Part shown: positions 1-19,871 of the stretch, in pieces
Layout of the letters: every line of letters begins with the position of its first letter
How positions within the stretch are numbered: the stretch's first letter is position 1
Source of the DNA: Escherichia coli
GTDB lineage: Bacteria; Pseudomonadota; Gammaproteobacteria; Enterobacterales; Enterobacteriaceae
Assembly (NCBI RefSeq): GCF_003334315.1
Contig: NZ_QOWR01000024.1
Length of the DNA stretch: 64,000 bases
Direction: 5' to 3' (one strand)
Notes under the pieces: model-generated
Told to the model about the DNA's origin: nothing
The model's input: only the letters and a program-made list of their open reading frames with translations
Databases searched by the model: none
Program-made: the position numbers and the translations under genes

Positions 1-110
1 CCGTTGATCTGGAACGCGTCATGACCGCGCGCAAGAAATATTTTACAACATCGGCGGAGAAGCAAAGTGCTAAAGCCGCCAGGGAGAAAAAGCAGGAGGC
101 TGCTGAATGA
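1..110 (+). CDS. casA: CasA/Cse1 (Cascade large subunit), C-terminal fragment truncated by window start
   Basis: Open frame from position 3 to TGA at 108-110 with no internal stop; stop overlaps casB ATG (ATGA); position upstream of cse2 in type I-E operon. Confidence 0.55.
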   Translation, partial: VDLERVMTARKKYFTTSAEKQSAKAAREKKQEAAE

Positions 111-643
111 GTATTGTAAAAGAGGAGCACAAAGCCACGCTGCGCAAATGGCACGAGGAATTGCAGGAGAAACGTGGCGAACGTGCCAGTCTGCGGCGTA
201 GTACGACGGTTAATGATGTTTGTCTGACGGATGGATTTCGCCTGTTTCTGAAGAACAGACAAATAAAGTGGCAGGATGAACCTGAGTGGCGTATCACCGC
301 ACTGGCGCTGATAGCCGCAGTTAGCGCCAATGTTAAAGCTATTGATGAACGGCAGCCTTTTGCCGCGCAGCTGGCGGCGGTAATGTCAAAGGGGCGTTTT
401 ACTCGTCTGTCGGCAGTAAAAACACCGGATGAATTACTGCGCCAGTTACGCCGCGCAGTCAGATTATTAAACGGTTCCGTCAATCTTGACTCTCTGGCAG
501 AGGGGGTCTTCCGTTGGTGCCAGGAGAGCGACGACCTGCTCAATCATCACCGCCGCCAGCAGCGGCCAACCGAATTTATCCGTATCCGCTGGGCGCTGGA
601 ATATTACCAGGCTGGCGACGCCGATAACGAACAAAATCAATAA
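107..643 (+). CDS. casB: CasB/Cse2 (Cascade small subunit), 178 aa
   Basis: ORF immediately upstream of cas7e/cas5e/cas6e/cas1/cas2; size typical of Cse2; synteny-based call. Confidence 0.75.
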   Translation: MSIVKEEHKATLRKWHEELQEKRGERASLRRSTTVNDVCLTDGFRLFLKNRQIKWQDEPEWRITALALIAAVSANVKAIDERQPFAAQLAAVMSKGRFTRLSAVKTPDELLRQLRRAVRLLNGSVNLDSLAEGVFRWCQESDDLLNHHRRQQRPTEFIRIRWALEYYQAGDADNEQNQ

Positions 644-654
644 AGGACTATCTC

Positions 655-1710
655 ATGACAACATTTATTCAGCTTCATTTGTTAACCGCTTACCCTGCTG
701 CCAACCTTAACCGTGATGATACCGGTGCGCCAAAAACTGTGGTGCTGGGTGGAGCAACGCGTCTGCGCGTTTCCTCGCAAAGTCTGAAATGTGCGTGGCG
801 CACTTCTGCACTTTTTGAACAGGCACTGGCGGGCCATATTGGTATTCGCAGTGGGCGTATTGCGCGTGAGGCGGCAACTATCCTGATTGAGAAAGGAATC
901 GAAGAGAAAAAAGCCATCGAATGGGCGGCAAAAATTGCAGATTATCTTGGGAAAGCTAAAAACGACAAAAAACCAAAAGATCCGCTCACTAACGCCGAAA
1001 CTGAACAGTTAGTCCATATCAGCCCGGCAGAATTTGACGCCGTAAAAGTGCTGGCCCATCAGCTTGCAGAAGAAAAGCGCGCGCCAAAAGAGGAAGATCT
1101 CGCGTTGTTACGCAAAGACCGTATGGCGGTAGATATTGCCATGTTTGGTCGTATGCTGGCGAATAAACCCGAGTTTAATGTTGAAGCCGCCTGCCAGGTA
1201 GCGCACGCATTTGGTGTCAGTGAAATGATTGTCGAAGATGATTTTTTCACCGCCGTTGATGATTTGCGCCAGGCTTCTGAAGATGCCGGTGCCGGGCATC
1301 TTGGTGAAACCGGATTCGGTTCTGCACTGTTCTACACCTATATCTGCATTGATAAAGATCTGCTGGTCGAAAACCTTGGCGGTGACGAAGCGTTAGCTAA
1401 TCAGACCATACGTGCCTTTACGGAAGCCGCACTTAAAGTCTCCCCAACCGGCAAACAGAACAGCTTTGCCAGCCGTGCCTACGCCTCCTGGGCGCTGGCA
1501 GAAAAAGGCACCGATCAACCGCGTTCTCTGGCGGCAGCTTTCTATGAACCCATTAATGGCACCCGTCAGTTAGAGGTGGCGGTGCAGCGTATTACAACTC
1601 TTCGCGAAAATATGAATACGGTCTACGAACAGAAGACCGATTACGCAAGTTTTGACGTGATGAACAAACAGGGAAGCATGAAGGACGTGCTGGACTTTAT
1701 CTGCGCGTAA
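655..1710 (+). CDS. casC: CasC/Cas7e (Cascade backbone subunit), 351 aa
   Basis: N-terminus MTTFIQLHLLTAYPAANLNRDD typical of Cas7e; operon position. Confidence 0.85.
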   Translation: MTTFIQLHLLTAYPAANLNRDDTGAPKTVVLGGATRLRVSSQSLKCAWRTSALFEQALAGHIGIRSGRIAREAATILIEKGIEEKKAIEWAAKIADYLGKAKNDKKPKDPLTNAETEQLVHISPAEFDAVKVLAHQLAEEKRAPKEEDLALLRKDRMAVDIAMFGRMLANKPEFNVEAACQVAHAFGVSEMIVEDDFFTAVDDLRQASEDAGAGHLGETGFGSALFYTYICIDKDLLVENLGGDEALANQTIRAFTEAALKVSPTGKQNSFASRAYASWALAEKGTDQPRSLAAAFYEPINGTRQLEVAVQRITTLRENMNTVYEQKTDYASFDVMNKQGSMKDVLDFICA

Positions 1711-1720
1711 GGGGCGGCTT

Positions 1721-2467
1721 ATGAGCCAATATCTGATTTTTCAGCTTCATGGGCCGATGGCGTCCTGGGGTGTCGATGCTCCAGGTGAAGTTCGTCATAC
1801 CCATGAACTTCCTTCGCGCTCAGCATTGCTGGGGCTACTGGCTGCCGGGGTAGGGATTCGGCGTGATGATACCGAACGCTTAAACGCGTTTAATCGCCAC
1901 TATTCACTGGTGGTTTGCGCCAGCCGTAACCCGCGCTGGGCACGGGATTATCACACGGTCCAGATGCCAAAAGAGGTGCGTAAAGCACGTTATTTCAGCC
2001 GTCGCGAAGAGTTGAGCGACCCTGAGCTTTTGAGCGCGATTATCTCCCGGCGCGACTACTACACCGATGCCTGGTGGATGGTGGCGGTGGCAACAACCCC
2101 CGATGCGCCTTACAGCCTCGAACAGTTGCAGGACGGTTTACGCCATCCGGTTTTTCCGCTTTATCTGGGGCGAAAAAGTCATCCGCTGGCGTTACCACTT
2201 GCGCCGTTACTGCTCGAAGGCAACGCGTCTGATGTCTTACGTAACGCATACCAACAGTATCAGGATCGTTTCCGCGAACTGAAAGTCTCACTCCCGAAAC
2301 TTCAGGATGAATGCTGGTGGGAAGGGGAGCACGATGGTTTGGTCGCAAGCAAAATATTACGCCGCCGGGATGTTCCTTTAAATCGTCAGCAGTGGCTGTT
2401 TGGGGAACGCACCATCAATCAGGGGCCGTGGCTCAGCAAGGAGGAACCATGTACCTCTCAAGAATAA
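1721..2467 (+). CDS. casD: CasD/Cas5e, 248 aa
   Basis: N-terminus MSQYLIFQLHGPMASWG resembles Cas5e (K-12 CasD MRSYLILRLAGPMQAWG); operon position. Confidence 0.85.
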   Translation: MSQYLIFQLHGPMASWGVDAPGEVRHTHELPSRSALLGLLAAGVGIRRDDTERLNAFNRHYSLVVCASRNPRWARDYHTVQMPKEVRKARYFSRREELSDPELLSAIISRRDYYTDAWWMVAVATTPDAPYSLEQLQDGLRHPVFPLYLGRKSHPLALPLAPLLLEGNASDVLRNAYQQYQDRFRELKVSLPKLQDECWWEGEHDGLVASKILRRRDVPLNRQQWLFGERTINQGPWLSKEEPCTSQE

Positions 2468-3095
2468 CCTTACATACCGGCCAGCTTTCGCCTGCGCAGT
2501 TGCTGCATCTGGTGGATCGCGGTGAATATGTGATGCATCAGTGGTTGTGGGATCTCTTCCCTGGCGGCAAAGAAAGGCAATTTCTTTATCGTCGGGAAGA
2601 ACTCCAGGGCGCGTTTCGCTTTTTTGTCCTCTCGCAGGAACGCCCGGCAGAAAGTGAAACTTTCACCATCGAATGCCGGTCATTTACGCCCGAGCTGAGT
2701 ACCGGACAACAACTTTGTTTCAACCTGCGGGCGAATCCAACAATCTGTAAAGCGGGCAAGCGCCACGATCTGCTGATGGAGGCGAAACGGCAGGTGAGGG
2801 GACAGGCGGAAGGAAGTGATGTCTGGTTGCATCAACAACAGGCGGCGCTGGACTGGCTGGCAGCGCAGGGGGAAAGAAGTGGTTTTACACTACTGGATAC
2901 CTCGGTTGATGCCTACCGACAACAACAACTCCGGCGGGAAAACTCCTGGCAACTGATCCAGTTCAGTAGTGTGGATTATACGGGGATGCTTACGGTCACC
3001 GATCCTGGGTTATTTCTGCAACGTCTCAGTCAGGGGTATGGCAAAAGCCGGGCGTTCGGTTGTGGTCTGATGCTGATCAAACCTGGAGCAGAGGC

Positions 3096-3099
<4 letters not shown>
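2449..3099 (+). CDS. casE: CasE/Cas6e crRNA endoribonuclease, 216 aa
   Basis: Start moved to internal ATG 2449 (MYLSRITLHTG, matches Cas6e N-terminus MYLS...) preceded by AGGAGG at 2438-2443; overlaps casD 3' end. Confidence 0.85.
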
Positions 3100-4309
<1,210 letters not shown>

Positions 4310-4404
4310 GTTATCCGTTCTTTAAAAATAAGGAAATGTTTTAATTTAGTTGGTAGATTGTTGATGCGGAATAAATTTGTTTAAAACAGTTATGTATGCT
4401 TAGT
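4310..4404 (+). promoter_or_regulatory. CRISPR leader (AT-rich, between cas2 stop and first repeat)
   Basis: 95-bp AT-rich segment directly upstream of first repeat, downstream of cas2; standard leader position for I-E arrays. Confidence 0.6.
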
Positions 4405-4921
4405 GTGTTCCCCGCGCCAGCGGGGATAAACCGGAGCGTAGAGATTCTCGAAACCGATCCGGACGGTGTTCCCCGCGCCAGCGGGGATAAACCGAATAAA
4501 TAATAATCCAGTAGCCCCATGTATTAGTGTTCCCCGCGCCAGCGGGTATAAACCGGTAATAAAAAATATTCTATTTCTGCTGAATCAGTGTTCCCCGCGC
4601 CAGCGGGGATAAACCGCTTGCGAGCAAAAGATCCAGGCCGAGAAAGACGTGTTCCCCGCGCCAGCGGGGATAAACCGCGATAACCGCGTCAGTATTGGAC
4701 AGGATATCAGTGTTCCCCGCGCCAGCGGGGATAAACCGAATCTATTGTGAATTTGAAATGGTCCAGCACTGTGTTCCCCGCGCCAGCGGGGATAAACCGG
4801 GTAAAAACACGGTCTGAACCGACATTCATGTGTGTTCCCCGCGTCAGCGGGGATAAACCGGGCGCACTGGATGCGATGATGGATATCACTTGGAGTTCCC
4901 CGCCCCTGCGGTAGAACTCCC
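4405..4921 (+). CRISPR. Type I-E CRISPR array, 9 repeats (29 bp) and 8 spacers (32 bp each)
   Basis: Repeat GTGTTCCCCGCGCCAGCGGGGATAAACCG starting at 4405, 4466, 4527, 4588, 4649, 4710, 4771, 4832, plus degenerate terminal copy GAGTTCCCCGCCCCTGCGGTAGAACTCCC at 4893; period 61 bp; single-base variants in repeat 3 (GGGTATAAA) and repeat 8 (GCGTCAG). Confidence 0.97.
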
Positions 4922-4941
4922 AACTCCCATTTTCATACCCA

Positions 4942-5979
4942 TCAAGACGCCTTCGCCAGCTCCTTCACCAGCGGTAGCATTATCCGCATAACATCACGGC
5001 AGCGACGTTCTATTCTTCCTGGAAGTGCCTTATCAATATGTTGTTGATTATCCAGTCTTACGTCATGCCAGCTATTTCCCGCAGGGAATGCAGCTGTTTT
5101 TGCGCGTTGCTGATAACCATCCTTATTCCCAAGATTCCAATTTGTTGCTTCTACCGAAAGTACGGCAATACCGGCTTTGTCGAAAACTTCGGCGTCATTA
5201 CAACAGCCAGTACCCTTCGGATAATTTTTATTCAAACCCGGATTGGTCGTTGCGGCAATTCCATGACTACGCGCAATTGCCAGTGCCCTGTCGCGCGTTA
5301 ATTTCCTTACTGCTTCAGGGGTTTTTACACCACTGTTGAAATACAATTTATCGCCAACAATTAAGTTATCGAGATTAATCACCAGCAGCGTATTTTTCTT
5401 TTCGGTGTCACTCATCCGCTTGAGTAAATTCTCAGCGCCTAATTTCCCTTCCTCTTCACCGCTGGTCGCTACAAATCGAATACCATACTCGGTAGGCGTA
5501 TTTTTCAGGCGTTCTGCCAATTCCAGCATGACACCTAAACCTGCGGCGTTATCATCCATTCCTTGTAACGTCAGCCCGCCGAGATTGGCATCGGCGTCAG
5601 CATCGCTCAGCGGGGCGTAAGTATCCAGATGCGCCATAATGATGATCTGCTGCGGCGCTTTGCCTTCATGAGCGGCAATCACCGTACTTCCCGTCACGTT
5701 ATGCCAGCTCTTACGATTATCGCGGGCGGTATAAATATACCGACTATTAAATGTCCGAATATCACTGCGATAACCCATTTGCTGAAACTGTTGGCGAATA
5801 TAATCGGCAGATAACATTTCTGCAGGAGTTCCGGTCATGCGTCCCGGAAAGAAAGTAGCAATATGTCGTGCCTGAGTATTAGCAAAATCGCCAGGTTTAG
5901 GTGACGAGGCGTGTACGGGGAGAATAAAGCATACGCCGAGCGCCAGGGCAGCGGTACGGTGGCGCAATGCGGAAAACAT
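4942..5979 (-). CDS. iap: Alkaline phosphatase isozyme conversion aminopeptidase, 345 aa
   Basis: Protein MFSALRHRTAALALGVCF... and length match Iap; position between CRISPR array and cysD. Confidence 0.9.
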   Translation of the reverse strand: MFSALRHRTAALALGVCFILPVHASSPKPGDFANTQARHIATFFPGRMTGTPAEMLSADYIRQQFQQMGYRSDIRTFNSRYIYTARDNRKSWHNVTGSTVIAAHEGKAPQQIIIMAHLDTYAPLSDADADANLGGLTLQGMDDNAAGLGVMLELAERLKNTPTEYGIRFVATSGEEEGKLGAENLLKRMSDTEKKNTLLVINLDNLIVGDKLYFNSGVKTPEAVRKLTRDRALAIARSHGIAATTNPGLNKNYPKGTGCCNDAEVFDKAGIAVLSVEATNWNLGNKDGYQQRAKTAAFPAGNSWHDVRLDNQQHIDKALPGRIERRCRDVMRIMLPLVKELAKAS

Positions 5980-13805: not shown

Positions 13806-14945
13806 ATGAGCGCGGGAAGCCCAAAATTCACCGTTCGCCGCATTGCGGCTTTGTCACTGGTTTCGCTATGGCTGGCAGGCTGTTCTGACACTTCAAATCC
13901 ACCGGCACCGGTCAGCTCCGTTAATGGCAATGCGCCTGCAAATACCAATTCTGGTATGTTGATTACGCCGCCGCCGAAAATGGGGACGACGTCTACAGCC
14001 CAGCAACCGCAAATTCAGCCGGTACAGCAGCCACAAATTCAGGCTACTCAACAACCGCAAATCCAGCCAGTGCAGCCAGTAGCTCAGCAGCCGGTACAGA
14101 TGGAAAACGGACGCATCGTCTATAACCGTCAGTATGGGAACATTCCGAAAGGCAGTTATAGCGGCAGTACCTATACCGTGAAAAAAGGCGACACACTTTT
14201 CTATATCGCCTGGATTACTGGTAACGATTTCCGTGACCTTGCTCAGCGCAACAATATTCAGGCACCATACGCGCTGAACGTTGGTCAGACCTTGCAGGTG
14301 GGTAATGCTTCCGGTACGCCAATCACTGGCGGAAATGCCATTACCCAGGCCGACGCAGCAGAGCAAGGAGTTGTGATCAAGCCTGCACAAAATTCCACCG
14401 TTGCTGTTGCGTCGCAACCGACAATTACGTATTCTGAATCTTCGGGTGAACAGAGTGCTAACAAAATGTTGCCGAACAACAAGCCAGCTGCGACCACGGT
14501 CACAGCGCCTGTAACGGTACCAACAGCAAGCACAACCGAGCCAACTGTCAGCAGTACATCAACCAGTACGCCTATCTCCACCTGGCGCTGGCCGACTGAG
14601 GGCAAAGTGATCGAAACCTTTGGCGCTTCTGAGGGGGGCAACAAGGGGATTGATATCGCAGGCAGCAAAGGACAGGCAATTATCGCGACCGCAGATGGCC
14701 GCGTTGTTTATGCTGGTAACGCGCTGCGCGGCTACGGTAATCTGATTATCATCAAACATAATGATGATTACCTGAGTGCCTACGCCCATAACGACACAAT
14801 GCTGGTCCGGGAACAACAAGAAGTGAAGGCGGGGCAAAAAATAGCAACCATGGGTAGCACCGGAACCAGTTCAACACGCTTGCATTTTGAAATTCGTTAC
14901 AAGGGGAAATCCGTAAACCCGCTGCGTTATTTGCCGCAGCGATAA
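13806..14945 (+). CDS. nlpD: Murein hydrolase activator lipoprotein NlpD (LysM + M23 domains), 379 aa
   Basis: Lipobox LAGC, Q/P-rich repeats, C-terminal M23 peptidase-like domain; rpoS promoter is known to lie inside this gene. Confidence 0.92.
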
Positions 14946-15007: not shown

Positions 15008-15646
15008 ATGAGTCAGAATACGCTGAAAGTTCATGATTTAAATGAAGATGCGGAATTTGATGAGAACGGAGTTGAGGTTTTTGACGAAAAGGCCTTAGTA
15101 GAAGAGGAACCCAGTGATAACGATTTGGCCGAAGAGGAACTGTTATCGCAGGGAGCCACACAGCGTGTGTTGGACGCGACTCAGCTTTACCTTGGTGAGA
15201 TTGGTTATTCACCACTGTTAACGGCCGAAGAAGAAGTTTATTTTGCGCGTCGCGCACTGCGTGGAGATGTCGCCTCTCGCCGCCGGATGATCGAGAGTAA
15301 CTTGCGTCTGGTGGTAAAAATTGCCCGCCGTTATGGCAATCGTGGTCTGGCGTTGCTGGACATCCTGGCCGATGAAAAAGAGAACGGTCCGGAAGATACC
15401 ACGCAAGATGACGATATGAAGCAGAGCATCGTCAAATGGCTGTTCGAGCTGAACGCCAAACAGCGTGAAGTGCTGGCACGTCGATTCGGTTTGCTGGGGT
15501 ACGAAGCGGCAACACTGGAAGATGTAGGTCGTGAAATTGGCCTCACCCGTGAACGTGTTCGCCAGATTCAGGTTGAAGGCCTGCGCCGTTTGCGCGAAAT
15601 CCTGCAAACGCAGGGGCTGAATATCGAAGCGCTGTTCCGCGAGTAA
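15008..15646 (+). CDS. rpoS: RNA polymerase sigma S (RpoS) allele with in-frame internal deletion; 212 aa instead of 330 aa, predicted non-functional
   Basis: N-terminal 118 aa ([21 protein letters not shown]...[11 protein letters not shown]) and C-terminal 94 aa ([14 protein letters not shown]...[10 protein letters not shown]) match RpoS; regions 2.2-3 (e.g. YATWWIRQ) absent. Confidence 0.9.
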
Positions 15647-18612: not shown

Positions 18613-19871
18613 GATAAAAACTCTCTTTGGGCTCGTGAAAAAAAGGCGTCATCACCGAAGTTGCCAGATTTAAGGGCGAGTGAGACAGGCTTATCCAGTG
18701 CGTTTACCCACGGCACGCCGGGGGAAATGGTTGGGCCAATATGAAACCCTTTTATGCCCAGGCTCTGTGTGACTACGCCGGAGGTCTCACCGCCTGCGAC
18801 AATAAAGCGTGCCACGCCTTCCGCCGCTAACCGCGCCGCTAGTTGAGAAAACAGTGTTTCTACTGCCTGACTGGCTTTTTGTGCACCGTATTGCTGTTGA
18901 ATTGCTGCCAATGCGTCAGTGCTGGCGGTGGCAAAAACCAGTGGAGCAAGTACACTTTCCTGGCCCAGAACCCACTCTGCCAGTTCGTGTGCATAAGTGG
19001 CCAGAGTTTCAGTTGAGAGGCAGCGTGCCACATCAACTTCACGGGCTGGTGCAATTTGACGGTAATGTGCTACCTGGCGGTTGGTCATTTGAGAGCATGA
19101 ACCGGAGAGCACTACGCCGCGCCCAGCGAGCGGATGCCCTGCTTCGCGAGCCTGGTTACCGTTTTCTTGCGTCCACTGCCGGGCCAGGCCAATCGCCAGA
19201 CCAGAACCGCCCGTTACCAGTGGGGCATCGCGCAAGGCTTCTCCCTGAATTTCCAGATGGTGTTCGGTCAGCGCATCAAGCACCGCGTAGCGGTAGCCCT
19301 CTTGCTGTAAGCGAGCCAGCTCTTGACGAACGGCATCCACACCTTGTTCGAAAACATGTGCCGAAACGACGCCGCAGCGCCCTGTGGATTGCGCTTCAAC
19401 CAGACGGGGAAGATAGCTGTCGGTCATGGGATTTACCGGGTGATGGCGCATCCCGGATTCGGCCAGCAGTTGATTCATTACGAACAAATACCCCTGATAA
19501 ACCGTACGTCCGTTGACCGGCAGGGCCGGAGAGAAGACCGTAAACGGCGTGTCGAGAGCATCCATTAATGCATCGGTAACCGGGCCGATATTACCTTTAG
19601 CCGTACTGTCGAAAGTAGAGCAGTATTTGAAATAGATCTGTTTGCAACCTTGCTGTTGCAACCAGCTCAGAGCCGCCAGCGATTGCTGTGTGGCTTCAAC
19701 CACCGGACAGGAACGCGTTTTCAGGCTGATCACCAGTGCGTCGATTGCTTCCGGCATTTTACCTGTTGGAACACCGTTAATTTGTACCGTTGGTAGACCG
19801 TTTTCCACCAGAAAACTGGCGATATCCGTTGCGCCGGTAAAATCATCGGCGATAACGCCAATCTTGATCAT
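18609..19871 (-). CDS. ygbK: Four-carbon acid sugar kinase family protein (3-oxo-tetronate kinase), 420 aa as longest ORF
   Basis: N-terminus MIKIGVIADDFTGATD typical of this kinase family; 4-bp overlaps with ygbJ and ygbL. Confidence 0.8.
   Translation of the reverse strand: MIKIGVIADDFTGATDIASFLVENGLPTVQINGVPTGKMPEAIDALVISLKTRSCPVVEATQQSLAALSWLQQQGCKQIYFKYCSTFDSTAKGNIGPVTDALMDALDTPFTVFSPALPVNGRTVYQGYLFVMNQLLAESGMRHHPVNPMTDSYLPRLVEAQSTGRCGVVSAHVFEQGVDAVRQELARLQQEGYRYAVLDALTEHHLEIQGEALRDAPLVTGGSGLAIGLARQWTQENGNQAREAGHPLAGRGVVLSGSCSQMTNRQVAHYRQIAPAREVDVARCLSTETLATYAHELAEWVLGQESVLAPLVFATASTDALAAIQQQYGAQKASQAVETLFSQLAARLAAEGVARFIVAGGETSGVVTQSLGIKGFHIGPTISPGVPWVNALDKPVSLALKSGNFGDDAFFSRAQREFLS

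What the first reader, a model, noticed from the sequence alone, without database searches (positions are those of the whole stretch)
4405..4921. Short type I-E CRISPR array with eight 32-bp spacers of unknown target
The array is leader-proximal to an apparently complete cas operon. None of the spacers can be assigned a target by inspection. Spacers 2 and 3 (4495-4526, 4556-4587) are markedly AT-rich, suggesting phage or plasmid origin. Spacer content is strain-specific and records past invader exposure.
Basis: seen in the sequence. Interest (0 to 1): 0.4.

Follow-up and report, generated by a model that had tools for sequence, protein, structure and literature searches.

The report
Ordinary inherited E. 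coli CRISPR array
This is the well-known CRISPR array that sits next to the iap gene in Escherichia coli; the same eight spacers occur in dozens of other sequenced strains, and three of them match temperate phages, so it is real but ordinary.

Summary
Nine 29-nt repeats sit at exact 61-nt spacing (4405-4921) and enclose eight 32-nt spacers at the stated coordinates. A 95-nt leader separates the array from cas2.

It is the iap-adjacent type I-E array of E. coli, in the non-K-12 form (repeat GTG..., Cas6e 27% identical to K-12).

- The window holds casB to cas2 only. cas3 and nearly all of casA lie off its 5' edge, so a complete operon cannot be seen.
- The array is not strain-specific. About 40 complete genomes carry the same spacer series. 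S8 is also the terminal K-12 spacer, and S7 occurs in about 1,000 genomes.
- Three spacers have targets.
  - S1 matches a prophage tail-sheath gene, 32/32, ATG PAM.
  - S5 matches a DUF2590 tail-module gene of a P2-like phage, 32/32, ATG PAM.
  - S7 matches the lxr homologue of P7/SJ46-type P1-like phage-plasmids, 32/32, but almost always with CTG instead of ATG.
- The AT-rich S2 and S3, plus S4, S6 and S8, match nothing outside CRISPR arrays.

There is no self-target in the window. This agrees with published work that E. coli spacers mostly target temperate phages. Verdict: already known, low interest.

The parts
1..110 (+). 3' end of casA (cse1), last 35 codons plus stop. The rest of casA and all of cas3 lie outside the window.
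   Evidence: Reading frame 3 (first codon at base 3) of the first 110 nt is open to a stop. It is colinear with casA 4249-5811 of L001.
107..643 (+). casB / cse2, intact, 178 aa
   Evidence: TIGR02548, 99 bits against a cut-off of 28.5. Intact ORF.
655..1710 (+). cas7e / casC, intact, 351 aa
   Evidence: TIGR01869, 439 bits against a cut-off of 178.
1721..2467 (+). cas5e / casD, intact, 248 aa
   Evidence: TIGR01868, 160 bits against a cut-off of 69.
2449..3099 (+). cas6e / casE, the pre-crRNA endonuclease, intact, 216 aa. Only 27% identical to K-12 CasE.
   Evidence: TIGR01907, 289 bits against a cut-off of 45. BLASTP against K-12.
3096..4019 (+). cas1e, intact, 307 aa, 85% identical to K-12 Cas1
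   Evidence: TIGR03638, 381 bits against a cut-off of 216. BLASTP against K-12.
4016..4309 (+). cas2e, intact, 97 aa
   Evidence: TIGR01873, 132 bits against a cut-off of 33.
4310..4404 (+). AT-rich leader, non-K-12 type. It lacks one A of an A-run at about 4382 (about 22 nt before repeat 1), compared with the closest genome.
   Evidence: Sequence. Alignment with CP53. Alignment with the K-12 leader, 84% column identity. The simple sigma-70 scan found no site.
4405..4921 (+). CRISPR array: nine 29-nt repeats (R1-R9) and eight 32-nt spacers, transcribed left to right from the leader
   Evidence: Annotated as CRISPR in near-identical genomes.
4434..4465 (+). Spacer 1 (leader-proximal). It targets the tail-sheath gene of a myovirus-type prophage, 32/32 with an ATG PAM.
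   Evidence: IMG/VR contig L037 at 12090. E24377A prophage L039. Present in 220 E. coli genomes; 59 of 60 sampled rows are in arrays.
4495..4526 (+). Spacer 2, 28% GC, target unknown
   Evidence: No match in phages, plasmids, IMG/VR or JGI metagenome contigs, nor in E. coli genomes outside arrays.
4527..4555 (+). Repeat 3 with a private G21T change (4547). This is the stem-closing base just 5' of the Cas6e cleavage site.
   Evidence: The predicted hairpin weakens from -15.2 to -10.1 kcal/mol and from 7 to 5 base pairs.
4556..4587 (+). Spacer 3, 22% GC, target unknown
4617..4648 (+). Spacer 4, target unknown
4678..4709 (+). Spacer 5. It targets a small DUF2590 gene between the tape-measure and baseplate-J genes of a P2-like temperate phage, 32/32 with an ATG PAM.
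   Evidence: IMG/VR contig L038 at 5361. A 28/32 variant with a GTG flank lies in an E. coli N1420 prophage. The nearest isolated phages are ESSI-2-like, at about 66-69% DNA identity.
4739..4770 (+). Spacer 6, old and widely shared (also in E. coli B/BL21 derivatives), target unknown
4800..4831 (+). Spacer 7. It targets the lxr homologue (P7 upf94.2) of P1-like phage-plasmids. P7/SJ46-type alleles match 32/32 with a CTG flank. P1 itself matches 28/32 with an ATG flank.
4861..4892 (+). Spacer 8, the ancestral trailer-end spacer. It is identical to the last spacer of the K-12 and B arrays. Target unknown.
4893..4921 (+). Degenerate terminal repeat

Best explanation
This is the chromosomal CRISPR I array (also called CRISPR2.1, the iap-proximal array) of an E. 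coli type I-E system of the non-K-12 variant. It was inherited vertically with its lineage. It is not a record of this strain's own recent encounters.

Mechanism, from established knowledge of I-E systems and not shown here:
- The leader promotes transcription of the array.
- Cas6e cuts each repeat hairpin after G21. This yields 61-nt crRNAs with an 8-nt AUAAACCG 5' handle, the 32-nt spacer and a 21-nt 3' hairpin.
- Cascade (Cse1, Cse2, Cas7, Cas5, Cas6e) loads the crRNA. It binds DNA that carries a matching protospacer preceded by an AWG PAM, and recruits Cas3.

Shown here:
- The array and six intact cas genes.
- The targets of three spacers, all temperate phages. S1 hits the tail-sheath gene of an E. 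coli prophage with an ATG PAM. S5 hits a DUF2590 tail-module gene of a P2-like phage with an ATG PAM. S7 hits the lxr homologue of P7/SJ46-type phage-plasmids.

Inferred:
- S1 and S5 would give direct interference if the cas genes are expressed.
- S7 would mostly not, because nearly all perfectly matching targets carry CTG. In K-12 assays CTG blocks direct interference.
- Expression is probably low under ordinary conditions, as in K-12 where H-NS silences the operon.
- The five unmatched spacers derive from unsampled mobile elements.
For: Array anatomy.
The repeat folds into a 7-bp hairpin.
Six I-E cas genes are intact and score above curated cut-offs.
The locus lies between cas2 and iap, as in annotated E. 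coli genomes.
The same array occurs in at least 30 listed genomes and about 41-46 in all, from pigs, humans, cattle, chickens, dogs, frogs and river water.
S8 is the terminal spacer of K-12, and S6 plus S8 are in E. coli B.
S7 is in about 1,014 chromosomes.
S1 and S5 have 32/32 protospacers with an ATG PAM in phage tail-module genes.
S7 matches P7, SJ46, 99 PLSDB plasmids and 33 IMG/VR contigs at 32/32.
The repeat has T at position 2 (GTG..., the 'CRISPR-A' type), and the Cascade genes are very divergent from K-12.
ATG (written CAT in the paper) is the motif reported for this leader and cas variant: PMC3737337.
E. coli CRISPR1 spacers almost exclusively target prophages and temperate phages. 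P1, RCS47 and SJ46 are the most often targeted known phages, and arrays are stable: PMC10910852.
Against: cas3 and casA are not in the window, so an intact interference module is not shown. cas3 carries an internal stop in the closest genome, CP53.
Five of eight spacers have no target in any collection searched.
Up to 11 complete genomes appear to carry both a chromosomal S7 and a plasmid with a near-perfect S7 protospacer, so S7 is no absolute barrier.
The PAM data for CTG come from the K-12 Cascade. This variant's Cse1 is not visible here and may differ.
No expression or processing data exist.
The simple promoter scan found no sigma-70 site in the leader.
Confidence: 0.62

Rival explanations
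1. Fossil array. The locus is retained by descent but gives no immunity today, because the cas operon is silent or broken. The spacers are then only phylogenetic markers.
For: The array is identical across about 40 genomes from many hosts and countries. cas3 is a pseudogene in the closest genome. Perfect-match P7-type plasmids co-occur with S7 arrays in up to 11 genomes, against 16 expected by chance. E. coli I-E is reported as silent in the laboratory and its arrays as stable (PMC10910852).
Against: All six cas genes visible in the window are intact. cas3 and casA are intact in other genomes with the same array. No genome among 220 holds both S1 and its protospacer, although the expectation was only about 0.2, so this has little power. 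The tolerated S7 targets carry CTG, which is not an interference PAM (PMC4678831), so their tolerance does not show inactivity.
Confidence: 0.3
2. One reading: a strain-specific record of recent invader exposure, with the leader-end spacers recently acquired.
For: S1 sits at the leader end and has a perfect, canonical-PAM target in a prophage of present-day E. coli.
Against: S1 is in 220 genomes, more than the 115 that hold any of S2-S4. The full spacer series is shared by about 40 genomes. The window's only private differences are two point changes outside the spacers.
Confidence: 0.03
3. A non-immune role, in which crRNAs regulate the host's own genes by partial self-complementarity.
For: Such a role has been proposed computationally for E. 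coli I-E (PMC6413058; title and abstract only, seen).
Against: The best match of any spacer elsewhere in the 64-kb window has 10 or more mismatches. S2-S4 have no match outside arrays in 5,426 E. coli genomes at E <= 10. The three identified targets are all phage genes.
Confidence: 0.03

Closest known systems
CRISPR I arrays of E. coli CP53, PCN061, S1-INA-02-B, OkiPb01684 and about 40 other complete genomes
   Same: The same eight spacers in the same order, the same repeats and the same cas2-leader-array-iap context. Identity is 99.5-99.7% over 661 nt.
   Different: The window has two private changes: one A missing from an A-run in the leader (about 4382), and G21T in repeat 3 (4547).
E. coli K-12 MG1655 CRISPR I (iap array) and its type I-E system
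   Same: The same chromosomal site, 29-nt repeat, 61-nt period and identical terminal spacer (S8). Cas1 is 85% identical.
   Different: The K-12 repeat begins GAG ('CRISPR-T' with leader-T). K-12 has 12 other spacers. Its Cascade genes are very divergent (Cas6e 27% identity). K-12 acquires with AAG only, whereas the non-K-12 variant uses AAG or ATG (PMC3737337).
E. coli B (BL21 / C43(DE3)) iap array
   Same: GTG-type repeats; shares S6 and S8.
   Different: No cas genes (an IS421 lies next to the array). It lacks S7 and has three other spacers.
E. coli spacers against P1-like phage-plasmids and prophage structural genes (Dion et al. 2024, PMC10910852)
   Same: Temperate-phage targets. P1 and SJ46 are among the most-hit known phages. 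Tail genes are among the most-hit genes. Most targets are found in prophages rather than in isolated phages.
   Different: Nothing of substance. The specific S7 haplotype pattern, of a PAM change or a seed change in every common allele, was not looked for in the parts of that paper that I read.

Membership tests
Type I-E CRISPR-Cas locus (E. coli CRISPR I / CRISPR2.1) | 29-nt repeat of the E. coli I-E consensus with a 7-bp GC-rich hairpin | tested here: met
   Seven of nine repeats differ from the K-12 repeat only at position 2 (six of them identical to each other, R8 with one further change); R3 has a further change at G21, and R9 is the degenerate terminal repeat. Hairpin -15.2 kcal/mol, z = -3.2.
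Type I-E CRISPR-Cas locus (E. coli CRISPR I / CRISPR2.1) | 32-nt spacers with a 61-nt period and a degenerate terminal repeat | tested here: met
Type I-E CRISPR-Cas locus (E. coli CRISPR I / CRISPR2.1) | Subtype-specific genes cse2, cas7e, cas5e, cas6e, cas1e and cas2e next to the leader | tested here: met
   All six score above NCBIfam curated cut-offs and are intact ORFs.
Type I-E CRISPR-Cas locus (E. coli CRISPR I / CRISPR2.1) | cas3 and cse1 (casA) present and intact | not testable with these tools
   Only the last 110 nt of casA are in the window. In relatives both are present, but cas3 has an internal stop in CP53.
Type I-E CRISPR-Cas locus (E. coli CRISPR I / CRISPR2.1) | Protospacers preceded by an AWG PAM on the strand identical to the spacer | tested here: inconclusive
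   Met for S1 and S5 (ATG). The common 32/32 S7 targets have CTG (34 of 34). One plasmid has ATG. Five spacers have no target.
Type I-E CRISPR-Cas locus (E. coli CRISPR I / CRISPR2.1) | Chromosomal position between cas2 and iap | tested here: met
   iap lies on the minus strand at 4942-5979.
Type I-E CRISPR-Cas locus (E. coli CRISPR I / CRISPR2.1) | crRNA production and interference activity | not testable with these tools
   No expression data. The simple promoter scan of the leader found nothing.
Non-K-12 variant ('cas-EO' with CRISPR-A and leader-A; PMC3737337) | Repeat with T at position 2 in the direction of transcription (A in the paper's orientation) | tested here: met
   Repeats begin GTGTTCCCC, against GAGTTCCCC in K-12.
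Non-K-12 variant ('cas-EO' with CRISPR-A and leader-A; PMC3737337) | Cas effector genes distinct from the K-12 set | tested here: met
   Cas6e is 27% identical and Cas1 85% identical to K-12. Identity to the O157:H7 genes themselves was not tested.
Non-K-12 variant ('cas-EO' with CRISPR-A and leader-A; PMC3737337) | Acquisition motif CWT, including CAT (= ATG) | tested here: met
   S1 and S5 protospacers carry ATG. That is only two data points.

The most novel reading that the evidence does not exclude
The S7 protospacer in P1-like phage-plasmids may carry a footprint of natural CRISPR selection.

S7 sits in about 19% of complete E. coli genomes. Every common lxr haplotype seen has one of two features:
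- a non-consensus PAM: P7/SJ46 type, CTG with 32/32, where A at -3 looks ancestral because all other haplotypes keep it; or
- a synonymous mismatch at seed position 4: P1, Res13 and UTME-8 types, all with ATG.

The fully targetable combination, ATG with 32/32, was found in 1 of 184 PLSDB records. Mismatched alleles also co-occur with S7 arrays more often than perfect ones (at most 25 of 83 against at most 11 of 88).

If real, this would be population-level evidence that the supposedly silent E. coli I-E system acts in nature against phage-plasmids.
Probability: 0.15. Interest if true: 0.5.

Novelty: already known. Interest (0 to 1): 0.12.

Why it matters
It matters little beyond correct annotation. 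The array can serve as a lineage marker, because about 40 genomes share it. It also adds three concrete spacer-target pairs that agree with the published view of E. coli CRISPR as an anti-prophage and anti-phage-plasmid memory. The only thread with wider interest is the S7 PAM and seed pattern in P1-like elements. A proper population analysis of that pattern could bear on the long-standing question of whether E. coli type I-E immunity is active in nature.

Tried and rejected
**Searches that found nothing**
- Rfam at gathering thresholds found only three tRNAs near 63.5 kb and nothing in the array.
- Tandem Repeats Finder reports only part of the array, because the spacers differ.
- The simple sigma-70 and terminator scan of 4250-5000 found nothing.
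- Self-targeting within the window: the best match has 10 mismatches.
- S2, S3, S4, S6 and S8 have no hit in INPHARED phages or PLSDB at E <= 10, apart from S8 hits to arrays in records filed as plasmids and one chance hit of S3 (29 nt at 89.7% identity, E about 4) to leuB on a Buchnera plasmid.
- None has a hit in IMG/VR, searched with exact patterns that leave every sixth position free.
- S3 and S2 have no hit in JGI metagenome contigs.
- S4 and S6 have no hit in GTDB species-representative genomes.
- S2-S4 have no hit outside arrays in 5,426 E. coli genomes.
- No second spacer of this array matches the S1, S5 or S7 target regions that I hold, at up to 8 mismatches.

**Ideas considered and rejected**
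- S7 as a 'flipped' spacer. The opposite-strand flank would be AAA, not AAG or ATG.
- A local excess of variable sites in the S7 PAM plus protospacer. There are 7 variable sites in 35 nt, against a mean of 3.5 per 35-nt window of lxr. But 14% of windows reach 7, in a small and biased sample of six alleles, so this is not significant.
- Exclusion of perfect-match P7-type plasmids from S7 hosts. At most 11 were observed against 16.4 expected, p = 0.17, so this is not shown.

**Tool failures**
- Two scan attempts failed for lack of a free slot and were repeated.

Full report
**1. The observation**

The sequence at 4405-4921 holds nine copies of a 29-nt repeat at exactly 61-nt spacing.
- Six copies are identical: GTGTTCCCCGCGCCAGCGGGGATAAACCG.
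- R3 has G21T (4547) and R8 has C13T (4844).
- R9 (4893-4921) is a degenerate terminal repeat.

No other copy of the repeat exists in the 64 kb. S2 and S3 are 28% and 22% GC, against 53% for the window.

**2. Context**

The window is E. coli chromosome. It is 99.95% identical over its first 15 kb to strain CP53, and colinear with it to the end.

Upstream of the array lie intact casB, cas7e, cas5e, cas6e, cas1e and cas2e. All score above the NCBIfam curated cut-offs for the type I-E families. A 95-nt AT-rich leader (4310-4404) separates cas2 from repeat 1. iap lies on the other strand just after the terminal repeat.

The window begins 110 nt before the end of casA, so cas3 and casA cannot be assessed. 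In genomes with the same array they are present and intact. In CP53, cas3 is annotated as a pseudogene with an internal stop.

**3. Which E. coli variant**

The repeat begins GTG rather than the GAG of K-12. The leader differs from K-12's, with 84% column identity over the leader and first repeat. Cas6e is only 27% identical to K-12 CasE, although Cas1 is 85% identical.

This fits the non-K-12 variant described by Diez-Villasenor et al. (PMC3737337). That variant combines CRISPR-A repeats, leader-A and 'cas-EO' genes, and its acquisition motif is CWT. In the orientation used here, that is AAG or ATG. I did not compare directly with O157:H7 genes.

**4. How private is the array**

It is not private.
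- A 661-nt query across leader, array and flanks finds at least 30 listed complete genomes at 100% coverage and 99.5-99.7% identity.
- 41 genomes hold S1-S6 in one place, and 46 hold S2-S4.
- The hosts include pig, human, cattle, chicken, dog, frog and river water, from several countries.
- The window differs from these arrays by only two private changes: one A fewer in a leader A-run, and G21T in repeat 3.
- S8 is the terminal spacer of K-12, and S6 plus S8 are in E. coli B derivatives.
- S7 matches about 1,014 chromosomal records. Nearly all sampled rows were annotated as CRISPR, and a few carried no annotation.
- S1 is in 220 genomes.
- In strain 165, S1 is the third spacer of the other array, between queE and ygcE.

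**5. Targets**

All eight spacers were searched together against INPHARED phages and PLSDB plasmids at E <= 10. They were searched one by one against IMG/VR, with every sixth position left free. They were also searched against 5,426 complete E. coli genomes.

*S1*
- It matches 32/32, preceded by ATG, in the tail-sheath gene (PHROG 23) of an IMG/VR contig.
- It matches the same way in a prophage of E. coli E24377A with lambda-like head genes and P2-like tail genes.
- A second genome, YZMc3-1, also has it.
- The nearest isolated phages are only 84% identical, over 61% of the gene.

*S5*
- It matches 32/32, preceded by ATG, in a 111-aa DUF2590 gene between the tape-measure and baseplate-J genes of an IMG/VR contig.
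- A P2-family prophage of strain N1420 has a 28/32 version with GTG.
- The nearest isolated phages are ESSI-2-like, at 66-69% identity.

*S7*
- It matches 32/32 in upf94.2, the lxr homologue, of phage P7.
- It also matches 32/32 in Salmonella phage SJ46, 99 PLSDB plasmids and 33 IMG/VR contigs.
- P1 itself matches 28/32.

*The rest*
- S2, S3, S4, S6 and S8 match only CRISPR arrays.
- Extra scans of JGI metagenome contigs (S3, S2) and GTDB representative genomes (S4, S6) found nothing.
- No spacer has a near match elsewhere in the window.

**6. PAMs and likely activity**

ATG is a bona fide interference PAM in K-12 assays (group A in PMC4678831). It is also the motif associated with this leader and cas variant (PMC3737337). 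S1 and S5 therefore look like canonical, potentially protective spacers.

All 34 perfect S7 protospacers that I could read carry CTG. In K-12, CTG blocks direct interference and supports priming for one of two spacers tested (group C or D, PMC4678831). It was also among the variants assayed for priming in PMC6568314, but its group is given only in a figure I could not read. These data are for the K-12 Cascade and may not transfer to this variant.

**7. The S7 haplotypes**

Alleles with ATG all carry a synonymous mismatch at seed position 4, plus one to three more:

| Haplotype | Flank | Mismatch positions |
|---|---|---|
| P7 / SJ46 type | CTG | none |
| P1 | ATG | 4, 16, 17, 19 |
| Res13 type | ATG | 4, 13 |
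| UTME-8 type | ATG | 4, 17, 23 |
| pB16EC0268-4 | ATG | none |

A PLSDB search with a constructed 'ATG plus perfect' query found exactly one record within one mismatch. This is pB16EC0268-4, which is ATG with 32/32. Nine other contigs that encode the same protein have mismatches at positions 4 and 13. Because every other haplotype has A at -3, the C of the P7 type looks derived.

This pattern is what CRISPR escape would produce, but the evidence is thin. The PAM plus protospacer holds 7 variable sites, against a mean of 3.5 per 35-nt window of lxr, and 14% of windows reach 7, in six non-randomly sampled alleles.

From record and genome counts, at most 11 of 88 near-perfect plasmid protospacers share a genome with a chromosomal S7. 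For mismatched protospacers the figure is at most 25 of 83. The base rate is 18.7%.
- Fisher test between the two classes: p = 0.005.
- Perfect class against the base rate: p = 0.17.
- Mismatched class against the base rate: p = 0.011.

These counts are obtained by subtraction, are upper bounds and ignore phylogeny. Two co-occurrences were checked directly, and both have ATG plus a seed mismatch.

**8. Comparison with the literature**

Dion et al. (PMC10910852) report the following for E. coli CRISPR1:
- Spacers almost exclusively target prophages and temperate phages.
- P1, RCS47 and SJ46 are the most frequently hit known phages.
- Tail, portal and capsid genes are among the most targeted.
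- About 40% of spacers remain without a target.
- Arrays are stable.

The present array fits on every count: three of eight spacers are assigned, all to temperate elements, and two lie in tail-module genes.

**9. Verdict**

This is a real and correctly delimited type I-E array, but an ordinary and already sequenced one.
- 'Unknown targets' is overturned for three spacers.
- 'Strain-specific' is not supported.
- 'Complete operon' cannot be verified in the window.
- The AT-rich spacers remain unassigned.

Novelty: already known. Interest: low. One modest lead remains, the S7 PAM and seed pattern.

Noticed in passing
window 15008-15646 (+); junction at 15350-15361: rpoS encodes only 212 aa. It has an in-frame 354-bp deletion relative to CP53 rpoS (330 aa), between two 12-bp direct repeats GCGTTGCTGGAC. 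Roughly residues 118-235 are removed, so the strain is probably RpoS-defective.
   Followed up: partly
window 4547 (repeat 3, 4527-4555): A private G21T change at the stem-closing base next to the Cas6e cleavage site. The predicted hairpin drops from -15.2 to -10.1 kcal/mol. It may impair maturation of the S2 and S3 crRNAs, or it may be a sequencing error. None of the closest genomes has it.
   Followed up: partly
window about 4382 (leader, about 22 nt before repeat 1); also 13789 and 59544: One-base homopolymer length differences relative to CP53. One A is missing in the leader, one T is missing in the pcm-nlpD spacer, and there is one extra T near recA-recX. They are real variants or homopolymer sequencing errors. 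The leader one lies in the region where IHF binds in the K-12 leader (from memory, not tested).
   Followed up: no
L041 3001-3032 (E. coli strain 165, queE-ygcE array): Spacer S1 occurs as the third spacer of the other I-E array (CRISPR II) in another lineage. The same 32-mer therefore sits in two different arrays in different strains. This means either independent acquisition of a hot protospacer or exchange between arrays. S1 (220 genomes) is also more widespread than S2-S4 (115 genomes) although it is leader-proximal here.
   Followed up: partly
L002, L003, L046-L049, L051-L060 (lxr / upf94.2 of P1-like elements): Every common haplotype of the S7 protospacer has either CTG in place of ATG or a synonymous seed position-4 mismatch. 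ATG with 32/32 was seen once, in pB16EC0268-4. The pattern resembles escape but is not statistically established.
   Followed up: partly
L001 1-4151 (CP53); L042, L043, L045: An IS421 copy lies just upstream of cas3 in genomes with this array. CP53 has an additional IS5 there and a cas3 internal stop. In E. coli B derivatives the same IS421 abuts the array directly and the cas genes are gone.
   Followed up: no
PLSDB NZ_LC542972.1 at 246939-246968 (hit H84): A 293-kb record filed as a plasmid carries a 29/30 match to S8 with no annotated feature. It could be a plasmid-borne copy of the chromosomal CRISPR region or a mis-filed sequence.
   Followed up: no
window 14004-14068 and 19756-19802: Two short 24-nt-period tandem repeats of 2.7 and 2.0 copies. 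The first lies inside nlpD, by colinearity with CP53. Both look like ordinary coding repeats.
   Followed up: no
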